DNA of 32,000 nucleotides from Halogeometricum borinquense DSM 11551 (GTDB taxonomy: Archaea; Halobacteriota; Halobacteria; Halobacteriales; Haloferacaceae): the NCBI RefSeq assembly GCF_000172995.2, contig NC_014729.1, forward strand, positions 1,170,001 to 1,202,000, written 5' to 3'. The translations under genes and the position numbers were made by a program. Below the pieces are notes generated by a model that made no database searches, was not told the DNA's origin, and worked only from the letters and a program-made list of their open reading frames with translations. Shown piece after piece: positions 5,351-22,509 of this stretch. Every line of letters begins with the position of its first letter. Position 1 is the first letter of the stretch.

Positions 5351-5424
5351 GCCAGGGGAGCATGGGCGGTTCATGCACTCGACTTGTAATCGAGACTTCG
5401 CGGGTTCAAATCCCGCCCCTGGCT
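5351..5424 (+). tRNA. tRNA-Thr (anticodon TGT)
   Basis: Hand-folded cloverleaf. Acceptor GCCAGGG/CCCTGGC, D stem GCAT/ATGC, anticodon stem CTCGA/TCGAG with loop CTTGTAA, and T arm GCGGG-TTCAAAT-CCCGC. Total 74 nt. Position 8 is G rather than the usual U. Confidence 0.75.
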
Positions 5425-11177: not shown

Positions 11178-11336
11178 ATGCCCGAATGTCAGAACTGTGG
11201 TTCCTTCGTCACGACAGCGTACGCCCGGGTATTCGCCCCGGACGGCATGGATCACCCGCGTGTCTGTCCGAGCTGTGAGGATATGGTTCGAGACGGCGCA
11301 GAGGTGAGACAAGCACGCTCCCCTCGGAACACCTGA
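11178..11336 (+). CDS. small zinc-finger protein (two CxxC pairs)
   Basis: 52-aa ORF MPECQNCGSF...RVCPSCEDMV, below the track cutoff. It resembles the abundant haloarchaeal small CPxCG-type zinc-finger proteins. A TATA-like GCTTATAGC sits at about -27 to -35. Confidence 0.6.
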   Translation: MPECQNCGSFVTTAYARVFAPDGMDHPRVCPSCEDMVRDGAEVRQARSPRNT

Positions 11337-11346
11337 GAACGACGGT

Positions 11347-11583
11347 TCAGGCGATACGGTAGCGCTCGGCGTCCTGGTGTATGAGTCCCCGCTTACATAG
11401 GGCCCCCAGGATGCTGTACAAGGAGATCTTCTTCATCTCCAACCCCTCTTGGAGTTCAGTTATAGAGGATTCGCCCTGTACTGAGAGGTAAAGATAGACG
11501 AGTTTGGCGCTCGGCGAGTCGAGTTCTTCCGGAACGGCGACCGGCGCTGTCCCGGCAGACGGCGATTGAACAGTCCCTTGCAT
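11347..11583 (-). CDS. small winged-helix DNA-binding protein
   Basis: 78 aa from ATG 11583. The wHTH-like block is SAKLVYLYLSVQGESSITELQEGLEMKKISLYSILGALCKRGLI. The track extension to 11805 runs into the tRNA-like element. Confidence 0.6.
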   Translation of the reverse strand: MQGTVQSPSAGTAPVAVPEELDSPSAKLVYLYLSVQGESSITELQEGLEMKKISLYSILGALCKRGLIHQDAERYRIA

Positions 11584-11781
11584 AGTCGTTATCGGCCTGA
11601 CTACTTCGACGATAATAAAATCAACCCACGTCAATTGTCGAAATGGGAGCGAAGCGATTCGGCGGAGAGGAGGCACAACGCCGCTAAACCGACGAATCTT
11701 CAGGAACGTTCCCGTACGAAATGAGCCGGATCCGTTCGCCTTTTTTCGACTTCTGACGAGGGGCGGTTTCGACTGGGAGAG

Positions 11782-11880
11782 TGGAAGGGGCGGGAGTCGA
11801 ACCACGCGAAGCCGTAAACCCGGGCGACCGCAGAGGGTCGCTGCCGGAAGTTTATTGCTCTACCACTGAGCCACCCTTCC
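11782..11880 (-). ncRNA. aberrant tRNA-like element (pseudo-tRNA, t-element or unusual intron-containing tRNA)
   Basis: The minus strand reads GGAAGGG-TG-GCTC-AGTGGTA-GAGC ... TTCGACT-CCCGC-CCCTTCC-A. The acceptor stem is a perfect 7 bp, with a canonical D arm and T loop. The T-stem 5' strand is GCGTGG and needs a bulged U. The anticodon arm is an AT-rich TAAAC/GTTTA stem enclosing a 30-nt insert. Confidence 0.5.
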
Positions 11881-12432
11881 GTTCCGGCATAGGGCTGTGA
11901 CAGTTGACATCCTCCTCGTAAACGGGGAGGAATCCCGAGCGGTGGGTGTTTCAGGTTAGCAGTCCAATCACCGGACTACCACACCTTTCGGACATGGGTA
12001 GTCCCATAGCATCGGAGTGGTGGACTGCTGGCCATGCCAAGTGGCCGTTACCCCTCTCCTCGACCATATACGGCGTCCCGGCGTTGTTTTTGCCACGGGG
12101 ACGCCGGCAGGCGTCAGCAGAGTCGGGGGTATCGTCTTGCCCGCTTTCAGCAGCCGGCACAGACACACTCTTCTAAATGTGCGTTCACCGACTGGTCTTT
12201 CGGATACTGCCTCGTTACGTGGGTGGACAGGCCACCTCCGAAGGACGGTTCGGAATCCGCTCCGTTCCGACCGATTCCTACCCATAAGTATGGTAGCCTG
12301 TCACTTAAACGCCAGTCTTCTGAAACTCAAGACGGTCATCGAATGGAGATGCTCTCCCAAATGACGGCGCGTATCCACGGCGTGAACGCCGTGGTATTGC
12401 GCCTGTTCAGCATATAAATACCCGTTGGGGCG
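11881..12432 (-). other. ORF-free, hairpin-rich region of unknown function (possible structured RNA or long tRNA-like leader)
   Basis: No ORF here has halophile-like composition. Strong local stems occur at 11911-11930 (8 bp plus tetraloop), 11973-12004 (8 bp), 12071-12106 (9 bp) and 12375-12394 (8 bp plus tetraloop). A TATA-like TATTTATATG on the minus strand lies at 12411-12420. Confidence 0.3.
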
Positions 12433-13344
12433 CTACGTTCTCGCCAGCGAAAGCCACAACCAGACCACCGTCTGCGCGGCGACGAATACGACCATCGCGG
12501 CGACGGCAGGGAACGGGGATCTGACGCGAGTGTAGCGGACACCGCCCCAGACCGAGAGCGGGACTGCGAAGAGTCCGGCGCCGACGACCACCCACGGAAC
12601 GATGCCGCCGACACCGAGGAGGACGAGTGTCGCGTAAGCGGCGAAGACACTCAGCCAATACGCCCGCCTGAGGCGGTGCGAATCCCACCGAACGGCCAGC
12701 GTCTCCTTTCCGACCGACGCATCGGGTTTTCGGTCCGCCCAGTGCGTCGTGAGAAGATTCGCAAACACGAGGACGGCGAACGGAACAAACACCAGCGTCG
12801 CCGTCACGGGCACCGACTCGGTGACGACAGTGAAGCCGTACGCCGGGAGCAACACGCCACCCAGAATCGTGTTCGTTGCTTCTCCGTATCCGTTCCAGAC
12901 GAGTTCGAGCGGTGGCAACGAGTACTGGACGCCGACGATGCCGATAGTGAGGAGGATCAGAAACGCCGAGAGCGGCAGCACATGCGCGCCCAGTGCCACG
13001 ACGGCCGCGAGGACGCCCACGATGCTTGAGAGGAGCATCGCCCGTCGCAGAAACAGTGGCGGGAGTCCTGTGCGGACGAGCGCACCGCTCCCGCCCGAAA
13101 ACGGCGTCCGGTTCGCGCGGCTATCTGTCTCGTAGTCATCATATTCATTTGCGTAGTGGACAGTCACCGCCGTCGGGACGAACGCGACGAACGAGAGGGC
13201 GAACGTGGCAGGTGAGAGAGTCCCGCCGACGCTCACGGCAACGAGTCCACCGAAAGCGTAGACGAGAGCCATCAGCGCTACCTGTTCAGGCCGGCTCGCG
13301 TCGAACAGAGCGCGAACGATTGTCAGCGGGTCAGTGCGTATCAC
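12433..13344 (-). CDS. UbiA family prenyltransferase
   Basis: Polytopic membrane protein with the Asp-rich motif NEYDDYETD (N-x-x-x-D-x-x-x-D type). Confidence 0.85.
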   Translation of the reverse strand: MIRTDPLTIVRALFDASRPEQVALMALVYAFGGLVAVSVGGTLSPATFALSFVAFVPTAVTVHYANEYDDYETDSRANRTPFSGGSGALVRTGLPPLFLRRAMLLSSIVGVLAAVVALGAHVLPLSAFLILLTIGIVGVQYSLPPLELVWNGYGEATNTILGGVLLPAYGFTVVTESVPVTATLVFVPFAVLVFANLLTTHWADRKPDASVGKETLAVRWDSHRLRRAYWLSVFAAYATLVLLGVGGIVPWVVVGAGLFAVPLSVWGGVRYTRVRSPFPAVAAMVVFVAAQTVVWLWLSLART

Positions 13345-22423: not shown

Positions 22424-22498
<75 letters not shown>

Positions 22499-22509
22499 CT
22501 CCATTCTAC

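What the first reader, a model, noticed from the sequence alone, without database searches (positions are those of the whole stretch)
11881..12432. About 550 nt without credible ORFs but dense in stable hairpins, upstream of and co-oriented with a tRNA-like element
Every ORF the track offers here is short, overlapping and compositionally unlike the acidic proteome. The DNA is less GC-rich than its flanks. It contains several perfect stems: CCTCCTCG-TAAA-CGGGGAGG at 11911-11930, GGACTACC/GGTAGTCC at 11973-12004 enclosing a CCGAAAGG GNRA-type loop on the minus strand, CGGCGTCCC/GGGACGCCG at 12071-12106, and CCACGGCG-TGAA-CGCCGTGG at 12375-12394. A possible long-range GTGACAG/CTGTCAC pairing and duplicated TCAGCAG segments flanked by GCCGGC are also present. 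A good minus-strand TATA-like box (TATTTATATG, 12411-12420) could drive a transcript of about 600 nt ending in the tRNA-like element. I could not match it to RNase P RNA (no GAGGAAAGUCC) or SRP RNA (no GGAAGG.AGCA helix-8 motif).
Basis: partly seen in the sequence, partly recalled or inferred. Interest (0 to 1): 0.6.

Follow-up and report, generated by a model that had tools for sequence, protein, structure and literature searches.

The report
Mobile guide-RNA element in tRNA-like promoter
The 550-nt "ORF-less, hairpin-rich" stretch is one copy of a widespread gene-less haloarchaeal jumping element (a PATE, derived from TnpB-type IS200/IS605 insertion sequences) that carries a structured guide-RNA scaffold and has landed between the TATA box and the start of a tRNA-like gene, so it is an ordinary member of a known class sitting in an instructive place.

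Summary
The region has no credible ORF, is dense in hairpins and is co-oriented with a tRNA-like gene.

It is not a private cellular ncRNA gene. Window 12417-11904 (minus strand) is a 514-bp unit with sharp ends. It occurs more than 100 times, across dozens of haloarchaeal genera. Every copy follows TTATA and ends in TGTCAA, with no target duplication. Each end has an 8-bp hairpin just inside it.

The left end, the promoter region and the last roughly 225 nt are homologous to TnpB-encoding IS1341-type elements. A covariance model built only from gene-less copies hits the 3' ends of four annotated tnpB genes (62-100 bits). Thirty-five base pairs show compensatory changes, and G-U pairs place the RNA on the minus strand.

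Halogeometricum limi has the empty site. The element therefore sits between the tRNA-like gene's TATA box and its +1. H. borinquense shares the insertion.

Verdict: a palindrome-associated transposable element (PATE) carrying an omega-RNA scaffold, i.e. a new member of a known kind. Transcription, use by TnpB and co-transcription with the tRNA-like gene are inferred, not shown. The element's nt 140-288 form a covarying RNA domain of unknown origin.

The parts
12414..12420 (-). Host TATA box TATTTAT. Its last four bases, TTAT (12417-12414), are the transposon-adjacent target motif.
   Evidence: In 60 copies the five bases TTATA are 54-57/60 conserved, and everything upstream is random. H. limi has TATTTAA at the equivalent place, 23 nt before the tRNA-like +1, with no element present.
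11904..12413 (-). The PATE itself, a gene-less IS200/IS605-family element of 510 bp. The conserved unit is 514 bp (12417-11904) if the TTAT target is counted. Element numbering nt 1 = 12417.
   Evidence: 122 places in 54 haloarchaeal plasmids. Sharp ends. Absent from the orthologous site in H. limi.
12366..12403 (-). Left-end structure: outer helix GGCGC/GCGCC enclosing the hairpin CCACGGCG-UUCA-CGCCGUGG (12394-12375).
   Evidence: G-C to C-G compensatory change in 17 of 43 copies at the loop-closing pair. 93-95% identical to the left ends of TnpB-encoding elements L007 and L144.
12304..12309 (-). TTTAAG box (element nt 109-114), a candidate internal promoter. It is homologous to the TTTAATA box upstream of tnpB in full-length relatives.
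   Evidence: Conserved as GTTTAAGTGACAGG (0.89). Aligns with the TATA region before the tnpB ATG in L013-L015 and L144. Also present in the subfamily that has a different left end. Promoter function is inferred.
12130..12278 (-). PATE-specific core RNA domain (element nt 140-288): hairpins H4-H10, of unknown origin.
   Evidence: Helices H7, H8, H9 and H10 show compensatory changes. No similarity to four TnpB proteins. No Rfam match at E<=10. Indels are not multiples of three.
11910..12129 (-). Omega-RNA (sotRNA-type) scaffold, derived from the decayed 3' end of tnpB: helices H11-H17.
   Evidence: Rfam sot0042 gives 34 bits, E = 8e-7, below the gathering score of 88. The PATE-only model R1 hits the 3' ends of annotated tnpB genes at 62-100 bits. 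Remnants of the TnpB C-terminus (GDRSTGWLAQP versus ERGNGHLAWPAV) are detectable. Twelve pairs of H12 covary.
11910..11931 (-). Right-end hairpin CCUCCCCG-UUUA-CGAGGAGG. It is degenerate in this copy: one C.A mismatch, and the 3' arm plus tail is 3 nt shorter than the consensus.
   Evidence: The consensus is CCUCCGCG-UUYA-CGCGGAGGAGGAUGUCAA, with covariation in six pairs. The 3-nt deletion is seen relative to H. borinquense and all other copies.
11904..11909 (-). Invariant terminal oligonucleotide TGTCAA, the right cleavage site (…TCAA).
   Evidence: 60 of 60 copies; the next base is random.
11881..11903 (-). 23 nt of host DNA between the element and the tRNA-like +1. This is the predicted guide segment if the scaffold is read through: CUGUCACAGCCCUAUGCCGGAAC.
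   Evidence: Its position immediately 3' of the right end is shown directly by the sequence. Its guide role is inferred from the established TnpB/omega-RNA mechanism.
11782..11880 (-). Neighbouring tRNA-like gene. The acceptor, D and T arms are tRNA-like, and the anticodon arm is replaced by a long rod-like hairpin.
   Evidence: Rfam tRNA 43.5 bits. ARAGORN -i forces Arg(CCG) with a non-canonical 23-nt intron. 100% identical to H. borinquense and differs from H. limi by one base. The arm is variable in other genera.

Best explanation
Identity. Window 12413-11904 (minus strand) is a palindrome-associated transposable element (PATE). This is a gene-less derivative of an IS1341-type (TnpB-only) IS200/IS605 insertion sequence. 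It retains three parts of the parent: (i) the left end with its hairpin and the promoter region that precedes tnpB in full-length elements, (ii) the decayed last ~225 nt of tnpB that encode the omega-RNA scaffold, and (iii) the right-end hairpin and the TCAA terminus. The ~1.1 kb tnpB body is replaced by a ~150-nt structured RNA domain of unknown origin.

How it works, by inference from the IS200/IS605 mechanism. A Y1 transposase (TnpA) encoded elsewhere recognises the two hairpins on the top strand, which is the window's minus strand. It excises the element as single-stranded DNA and inserts it 3' of TTAT without a target duplication. Transcription of the element through its right end would give an omega-RNA whose guide is the adjacent host DNA. 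A TnpB encoded elsewhere could load this RNA and cut unoccupied TTAT+guide sites, which would favour retention of the element.

At this locus. The element inserted into the TATA box of a tRNA-like gene, 23 nt upstream of its +1, before the window species and H. borinquense diverged. The junction re-creates TTTATA upstream of the element. The element and the tRNA-like RNA are therefore probably co-transcribed from the old promoter, or from the internal TTTAAG box. The damaged right end suggests that this copy can no longer move.

Shown versus inferred. Shown: element identity, boundaries, homology to TnpB elements, covarying structure, strand, and the empty site. Inferred: transcription, use by TnpA and TnpB, and co-transcription.
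For: 1. Repetition. There are 122 places in 54 haloarchaeal plasmids at 67-86% identity, mostly unannotated. A 20-nt core word hits more than 120 loci in one-genome-per-species contigs, with several copies per genome. Short-read assemblies of the same locus break inside the element.
2. Boundaries. In 60 full copies the left flank becomes random exactly upstream of TTATA, and the right end is an invariant TGTCAA followed by random sequence. There is no target duplication.
3. Subterminal hairpins. Both ends carry 8-bp hairpins of the same design with U-rich tetraloops, and both covary.
4. Homology to autonomous-type relatives. The left end is 93-95% identical to the left ends of the TnpB elements L007 and L144. 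Those elements also follow TTATA and end in GGAGGAGGATGTCAA. The right end and scaffold align to the 3' ends of the tnpB genes L013-L015. Model R1, built only from PATE copies, scores 97-100 bits on those three genes and 62 bits on L007. Rfam sot0042 (the IS1341 sense-overlapping transcript) and HgcC give sub-threshold hits at the same place.
5. RNA structure. There are 98 consensus pairs; 35 have double changes against 19.9+/-2.4 in shuffles and 7-14 in slid controls, and 97.4% of cells are paired. Abundant G-U pairs would be A.C mismatches on the other strand.
6. Empty site. In H. limi, UbiA is followed by TATTTAA, 23 nt and the tRNA-like gene, with no element. H. borinquense has the element at the same place, 97.1% identical.
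7. Literature. PATEs with IS605-type ends were defined in haloarchaea (PMC3119063). PATE-derived RNAs are expressed in Halobacterium and Halorubrum (PMC4615843, PMC10544981). PATEs "often encode omega-RNAs" that act with TnpB in trans (PMC10055086).
Against: - No expression data exist for this locus.
- No TnpA or TnpB is present in the 32-kb window, and the rest of the genome could not be searched.
- The Rfam sot0042 hit is far below the gathering score (34 versus 88 bits).
- Element nt 140-288 have no counterpart in the TnpB elements examined, so a simple internal deletion does not explain the element's origin.
- This copy's right end is altered (a mismatch in the hairpin, and 3 nt missing).
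- Its divergence from the H. borinquense copy (2.9%) equals that of neighbouring intergenic DNA. This particular copy may therefore be a neutral fossil.
- Five of seven annotated plasmid copies abut the 3' end of a convergent gene rather than a promoter. Insertion into a promoter is not the rule.
Confidence: 0.88

Rival explanations
1. The same element has been exapted by the host. The insertion now serves as a long structured 5' leader or promoter spacer for the tRNA-like gene, or its RNA has acquired a cellular regulatory role and is kept for that reason.
For: The insertion has persisted across a species split while the tRNA-like gene stayed 100% identical. The TATA box is re-created at the junction. 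Overexpression of a PATE-derived RNA improved growth in Halobacterium (PMC4615843).
Against: The element diverges at the same rate as neighbouring intergenic DNA (97.1% in both). H. limi, Salinirubrum and the metagenome homologues of the tRNA-like gene work without it. The element's conserved features are explained by family-wide constraints, not by constraints at this locus.
Confidence: 0.1
2. A stand-alone cellular structured ncRNA gene of about 550-600 nt, unrelated to mobile DNA.
For: Strong folding z-scores and covarying helices. No ORF.
Against: More than 100 copies lie in unrelated genomic contexts with sharp transposon-type ends. The ends and the 3' third are homologous to TnpB elements. 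It is absent from the orthologous site in a congener.
Confidence: 0.02
3. An in-situ decayed pseudogene of a full-length tnpB insertion sequence, i.e. a locus-specific remnant rather than a mobile gene-less element.
For: Remnants of the TnpB C-terminus can be recognised in one frame.
Against: The same 514-bp architecture, including the non-TnpB core, recurs with identical boundaries in dozens of genera. Independent decay could not give the same product. The deletion derivative itself must have spread.
Confidence: 0.03
4. A self-splicing or self-cleaving RNA element (an IStron-like group I intron or a ribozyme) fused to IS605 ends. The nt 140-288 core would be the catalytic part.
For: IS605-type elements fused to group I introns exist in bacteria (IStrons; bioRxiv 10.1101/2023.11.20.567912). 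The core is structured and conserved.
Against: No Rfam intron or ribozyme family matches at E<=10 on either strand. The core (~150 nt) is too small for a group I core. Copies lie mostly in intergenic DNA, where splicing would bring no benefit.
Confidence: 0.02

Closest known systems
PATEs (palindrome-associated transposable elements) of haloarchaea, first defined in Haloquadratum walsbyi (PMC3119063); for example the 489-bp PATE of Halorubrum lacusprofundi / virus HRTV-DL1 (PMC10544981)
   Same: No terminal inverted repeats, subterminal palindromes, no target duplication, insertion after a short fixed oligonucleotide, a conserved terminal oligonucleotide, too short to encode a protein, ends shared with IS1341-type elements, and a size of about 0.5 kb. 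In the Halorubrum case the 3' part is the expressed part.
   Different: No blastn similarity to any record in the phage collection, so this is a different sequence family from any PATE held there. It carries a ~150-nt covarying core that is not traceable to tnpB. I could not check whether this family already has a name in ISfinder or HaloLex.
TnpB omega-RNA / sotRNA (Rfam sot0042, RF02656; HgcC, RF00062) of IS1341-type IS200/IS605 elements
   Same: The same position (the last ~200 nt up to the right end) and the same order of hairpins. It ends in the U-rich tetraloop right-end hairpin. Scaffold homology to the 3' ends of annotated tnpB genes is demonstrated with an independent covariance model.
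   Different: There is no overlapping tnpB ORF. It is below the Rfam gathering scores (34/88 and 13.5/50 bits). Helix H12 is expanded relative to the TnpB-linked versions. An extra 5' domain is present.
IS608 / ISDra2 (the studied IS200/IS605 models)
   Same: The target tetranucleotide or pentanucleotide lies 5' of the left end (TTAC / TTGAT there, TTAT(A) here). The right end terminates in TCAA, as in IS608. Hairpins sit at both ends on one strand.
   Different: These are bacterial and encode TnpA and/or TnpB. Here there are no genes, and TnpA-dependent movement is only inferred.

Membership tests
PATE / non-autonomous IS200/IS605 element | No terminal inverted repeats, but hairpins just inside both ends | tested here: met
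   Left-end hairpin at 12394-12375 and right-end hairpin at 11931-11910. Both are conserved and covarying in 43 copies. The ends themselves are not inverted repeats.
PATE / non-autonomous IS200/IS605 element | Inserts 3' of a fixed short oligonucleotide without target-site duplication; conserved terminal oligonucleotide at the other end | tested here: met
   TTATA is conserved in 54-57 of 60 copies at the left junction and TGTCAA in 60 of 60 at the right end. Flanks are random beyond these and show no duplication. The empty site is in H. limi.
PATE / non-autonomous IS200/IS605 element | Too short to encode a transposase, or no ORF for one | tested here: met
   510-514 bp. The ORFs have no Pfam hit. 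Indels among copies are not multiples of three.
PATE / non-autonomous IS200/IS605 element | Ends homologous to those of IS605-type elements that carry tnpB | tested here: met
   The left end is 93-95% identical to L007 and L144. The right end is ~80% identical, and the whole 3' 175 nt score 62-100 bits on four annotated tnpB 3' ends.
PATE / non-autonomous IS200/IS605 element | Multicopy and mobile (presence/absence polymorphism) | tested here: met
   More than 120 loci, with several per genome. Present in the window species and H. borinquense, absent in H. limi.
PATE / non-autonomous IS200/IS605 element | Mobilised in trans by a Y1 TnpA | not testable with these tools
   No tnpA lies in the window, and the rest of the genome could not be searched.
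TnpB omega-RNA (Rfam sot0042 / HgcC) | Reaches the family's curated Rfam score | tested here: not met
   sot0042 gives 34 bits against a gathering score of 88 (E = 8e-7, full model length). HgcC gives 13.5 against 50.
TnpB omega-RNA (Rfam sot0042 / HgcC) | Scaffold at the element's 3' end, homologous in sequence and structure to RNAs overlapping the 3' ends of tnpB genes | tested here: met
   Model R1 hits L013, L014, L015 and L007. The alignment is and the covariation.
TnpB omega-RNA (Rfam sot0042 / HgcC) | Transcribed across the right end, bound by TnpB, guide taken from flanking DNA | not testable with these tools
   This needs RNA-seq, pull-down and cleavage assays.
tRNA (the neighbouring gene 11880-11782) | Cloverleaf reaching the Rfam tRNA score | tested here: met
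   43.5 bits against a gathering score of 29.
tRNA (the neighbouring gene 11880-11782) | Seven-nucleotide anticodon loop, or a canonical bulge-helix-bulge intron, and an anticodon conserved among orthologues | tested here: not met
   ARAGORN in default mode finds nothing. With -i it needs a 38/39 intron with no bulge-helix-bulge motif. In homologues from Salinirubrum and from metagenomes the arm is a different long hairpin, with no common anticodon.
RNase P RNA, SRP RNA, group I/II introns, known ribozymes | Match to the Rfam covariance model | tested here: not met
   There is no such hit at the gathering threshold in the window or at E<=10 in 11300-12700.

The most novel reading that the evidence does not exclude
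This PATE family may be more than a stripped-down insertion sequence, in two ways.

First, its ~150-nt covarying core (element nt 140-288, window 12278-12130) has no detectable tnpB ancestry. It is kept together with the omega-RNA scaffold even in a subfamily that has swapped its left end. It could be a new functional RNA module carried as cargo, for example one that stabilises, processes or regulates the guide RNA.

Second, the TTAT(A) target resembles an archaeal TATA box. Insertions could therefore capture host promoters. At this locus, RNase P cleavage at the 5' end of the tRNA-like RNA would trim the read-through transcript to a scaffold plus a 23-nt guide.
Probability: 0.12. Interest if true: 0.6.

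Novelty: new member of a known kind. Interest (0 to 1): 0.3.

Why it matters
- Annotation: the result turns an apparently mysterious 0.5-kb structured non-coding region into an annotatable feature. It also gives a covariance model and boundary rules (TTAT | … TGTCAA) that would annotate hundreds of currently unlabelled loci in haloarchaeal genomes.
- Biology: it offers a natural case in which a gene-less guide-RNA element sits between a TATA box and a gene start. That makes three questions directly testable: whether such elements exploit host promoters, how a tRNA-like gene tolerates a 510-bp insertion in its promoter, and whether trans-acting TnpB uses PATE-encoded guides in polyploid archaea.
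- Limit: the class itself is already described, so the conceptual gain is modest.

Tried and rejected
- Rfam at gathering thresholds over the whole window found only three tRNA hits. A permissive scan of 11300-12700 gave only the sub-threshold sot0042 and HgcC hits plus one chance-level hit.
- There is no second copy of the element in the window (model R1).
- The phage collection gave no match.
- Pfam found nothing on the three longest internal ORFs.
- tblastn of four TnpB proteins against 43 copies found only weak C-terminal similarity (best E = 0.002) and nothing in the core.
- Partial plasmid hits (H27, H28, H30) were checked as possible full-length parents. They are truncated copies with no adjacent tnpB.
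- L124, a 48-nt perfect core match, is a truncated fragment and not a new context.
- My first ORF-conservation statistic was uninformative in GC-rich DNA, so I replaced it with the indel-phase argument.
- Folding energy cannot tell the strands apart. The strand comes from the G-U pairs.
- The two bacterial-MAG hits to the 20-mer (L049, L076) have no further similarity. About one such hit is expected by chance in 596 Gb.
- I considered and rejected calling the neighbour tRNA-Arg(CCG) with an intron. There is no bulge-helix-bulge motif and no conserved anticodon.
- I could not confirm TnpA or TnpB in the Halogeometricum genome.

Full report
**Observation.** The quoted stems, the minus-strand TATTTATATG and the repeated TCAGCAG motifs are at the stated coordinates. 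One stem (11911-11930) is imperfect: a T.G pair on the plus strand, which is a C.A mismatch on the minus strand. All ORFs are short and overlapping and have no Pfam hit. GC content is 0.56-0.60 against 0.63-0.69 in the neighbouring genes. The sequence folds much better than shuffled versions on both strands (z = -5.2 and -5.7). Directly downstream on the minus strand lies a tRNA-like gene (11880-11782). Rfam calls it tRNA at 43.5 bits, but default ARAGORN misses it. No Rfam family reaches its threshold inside the region.

**First lead.** A permissive Rfam scan gave a full-length but sub-threshold match on the minus strand (12073-11910) to sot0042: 34 bits, gathering score 88, E = 8e-7. This family is the "sense overlapping transcript" at the 3' end of IS1341-type tnpB genes of Halobacterium. 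A weak HgcC match overlaps it. These RNAs are what is now called the TnpB omega-RNA (PMC4615843, PMC10055086).

**It is a repeated element with sharp ends.**
- blastn against plasmids found 122 places in 54 haloarchaeal records, spanning Halomicrobium, Natrinema, Haloarcula, Halobacterium, Natronorubrum and others. Identity is 67-86% over essentially the same 514 nt, and almost all places are unannotated.
Some genomes carry several copies.
- In 60 full-length copies the flanks are unrelated. On the left, similarity begins exactly at TTATA (54-57 of 60 at each base). On the right, it stops after an invariant TGTCAA. There is no target duplication.
- Each end has an 8-bp hairpin with a U-rich tetraloop: CCACGGCG-UUCA-CGCCGUGG on the left and CCUCCGCG-UUYA-CGCGGAGG on the right.
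- These are the defining features of IS200/IS605-family elements and of their gene-less derivatives, the PATEs described in haloarchaea (PMC3119063).

**Relation to TnpB elements.**
- The last ~60 nt also match the 3' ends of annotated "RNA-guided endonuclease TnpB" genes.
- Alignment with three such elements (L013-L015) shows a common right end and a common scaffold (…GGGGAUAGGAGUA-CGGCnnnUUGGCAnnGCC…). It also shows a left end of the same design that follows TTATA.
- A second TnpB clade (L007, L144) has a left end 93-95% identical to the element's first 56-61 nt. It has the same TTATA junction and the same GGAGGAGGATGTCAA terminus.
- One reading frame of the element still shows the TnpB C-terminus (…ERGNGHLAWPAV… against …GDRSTGWLAQPAV…).
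- A covariance model built only from the last 175 nt of 37 gene-less copies scores 97-100 bits on the 3' ends of the three tnpB genes and 62 bits on L007. None of these was in the training set.
- In contrast, element nt 140-288 (window 12278-12130) have no detectable similarity to TnpB protein or DNA and no Rfam match.
- The element is therefore: left end plus tnpB promoter region (nt 1 to ~125), a PATE-specific core (nt 140-288), and the omega-RNA scaffold plus right end (nt ~289-514).
- A subfamily, mostly from Halorubrum, combines the same core and scaffold with a different TnpB-type left end.

**Structure and strand.**
- RNAalifold on 43 copies predicts 98 pairs in 17 helices.
- 35 pairs show changes on both sides, against 19.9+/-2.4 in column shuffles (0 of 500 reach the observed value) and 7-14 when the partners are slid by 1-3 columns.
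- 97.4% of cells are paired, against 39-48% in the slid controls.
- Covariation is present in the core (H7-H10) and in the scaffold (H11-H14, H17), not only in the two end hairpins.
- Several pairs are predominantly G-U on this strand, for example columns 243/278, 244/277, 233/287 and 326/388. On the other strand they would be A.C mismatches. The constrained molecule is therefore an RNA, or single-stranded DNA, of the window's minus strand.
- Frequent indels that are not multiples of three argue against a conserved small ORF.

**Empty site.**
- The window comes from a Halogeometricum genome. The UbiA-family gene at 12433-13344 is found exactly in GCA_000337855.1 and is 97% identical to that of H. 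borinquense.
- H. borinquense has the element at the same place, 97.1% identical. That equals the identity of neighbouring intergenic DNA, while the tRNA-like gene is 100% identical.
- H. limi keeps the gene order sdhB-sdhA-UbiA-tRNA-like-small HTH gene. Its intergenic region reads …AACGCCTATTTAA-TCGCTGGCACCGTACTGACGAAC-GGAAGGG…, with no element.
- The window reads …AACGGGTATTTAT-[element]-CTGTCACAGCCCTATGCCGGAAC-GGAAGGG….
- The element thus sits immediately after TTAT inside the TATA box of the tRNA-like gene, 23 nt before its +1.
- Homologues of the tRNA-like gene elsewhere all have a TATA-like box at -24 to -30. This supports reading the box as the promoter.
- The insertion re-creates TTTATA, which now lies upstream of the element's left end.

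**Mechanism.**
- Shown: identity, boundaries, target motif, homology, covarying structure, strand, and insertion polarity and age.
- Inferred from the established IS200/IS605 and TnpB mechanisms (my knowledge, plus PMC10055086 and PMC3119063): movement as single-stranded DNA by a Y1 TnpA supplied in trans; transcription through the right end; and use of the RNA, with the adjacent 16-23 nt as guide, by a TnpB supplied in trans to cut unoccupied TTAT sites.
- Transcription could start from the re-created TATA box. It could also start from the conserved TTTAAG box (12309-12304), which is homologous to the TTTAATA box ahead of tnpB. A start about 25 nt after that box would fall at the beginning of the core. 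This fits the report that only the 3' ~300 nt of a 489-bp Halorubrum PATE are strongly expressed (PMC10544981).
- In this copy the right-end hairpin has a mismatch, and the stretch between the loop and the terminus is 3 nt shorter than in every other copy. This copy is probably no longer mobile.

**What I could not do.** No expression data were available. No tnpA or tnpB lies in the window, and I could not scan the rest of this genome.

**Known or new.** PATEs, their IS1341-type ends and their omega-RNA content are all published. This locus is therefore a new, unannotated member of a known kind. Three points go slightly beyond the textbook picture: the covarying core of unknown origin, the TATA-like target motif, and the position of this copy between a TATA box and a tRNA-like gene.

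**Side observations.**
- The neighbour is not an ordinary tRNA. Its acceptor, D and T arms are identical in Halogeometricum, in Salinirubrum (same synteny) and in four metagenome contigs. The anticodon arm, however, is a long hairpin that differs between loci with compensatory changes and has no canonical intron motif.
- Many copies of the element in other genomes carry ~55-nt two-hairpin mini-insertions at fixed points after GAGG. These recall the 52-bp "terminal-only" PATEs and the small mobile repeats that target PATEs in Haloquadratum (PMC3119063).

Noticed in passing
window 11782-11880 (minus); L141:4915-5013; L143:3548-3635; L145-L148: The "tRNA" next to the element belongs to a family of tRNA-like RNAs. 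The acceptor, D and T arms are invariant (the T stem has a bulged U). The anticodon arm is replaced by a 30-50-nt rod-like hairpin that differs between loci with compensatory changes. There is no canonical bulge-helix-bulge motif and no shared anticodon. Each gene has its own TATA-like box at about -24 to -30. In Halogeometricum and Salinirubrum it lies between a UbiA-family gene and a small TrmB-like HTH gene plus a DUF7563 gene. I found no description of it in one literature search.
   Followed up: partly
L079, L109, L040, L042, L053, L116 (element nt 184/185); L098, L103, L008, L011 (nt ~208); L113, L029, L118: Two-hairpin mini-elements of about 54-56 nt (e.g. TCGTTCGAAAATCGGATATTTTCGTGATCTCGAGAGACACAGTCTCTCGGACGA) are inserted in either orientation at a few fixed points of PATE copies, typically right after GAGG. 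They look like minimal mobile elements that target this PATE. None is present in the window copy.
   Followed up: partly
L012, L032, L036, L057, L064, L075, L088, L092, L093, L104-L106, L120, L133: A subfamily, mostly from Halorubrum, shares only element nt ~146-514 (core plus scaffold). It has a different left end of the L014/L015 TnpB type (TTATA-GAnAnTCAAGGAGAATACC-hairpin-GGATGAATCCGACA). This implies modular exchange of left ends.
   Followed up: partly
L002:4810-5522 and L011:2682-3582: In two unrelated plasmids (Natrinema thermotolerans, Natrialba magadii) a copy of the element lies within 0.6-1.8 kb of an RtcB RNA-splicing ligase gene. This may be coincidence. Circular omega-RNA isoforms have been reported in archaea (PMC12558985).
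   Followed up: no
L137 (contig end at 4091) and L140 (contig end at 4963): Short-read assemblies of the same locus, in the window species and in H. borinquense, break off 51-179 nt beyond the UbiA gene, inside the element. This is as expected if these genomes hold further copies.
   Followed up: no
window 11178-11336 (+) and 11347-11583 (-): Downstream of the tRNA-like gene lie two small conserved genes: a 52-aa DUF7563 protein and a 78-aa weak TrmB-like HTH protein. The same order is found in Halogeometricum, Haloferax larsenii and Salinirubrum. The 152-aa ORF 11347-11805 that overlaps the tRNA-like gene is an over-extension of the 78-aa gene.
   Followed up: partly
window 11897-11903 versus 12298-12304: The first 7 nt of host DNA after the element's right end (CUGUCAC on the minus strand) are complementary to the conserved element motif GUGACAG (nt 114-120). 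The flank is locus-specific and differs in H. limi, so chance is the likely explanation (about 3% for a 7-mer somewhere in 514 nt).
   Followed up: partly
window 5351-5424 (+) and 22424-22499 (+): Two ordinary tRNA genes, Thr(TGT) and Glu(TTC). The window is otherwise core chromosome: the sdhABCD operon lies next to the UbiA-family gene.
   Followed up: no
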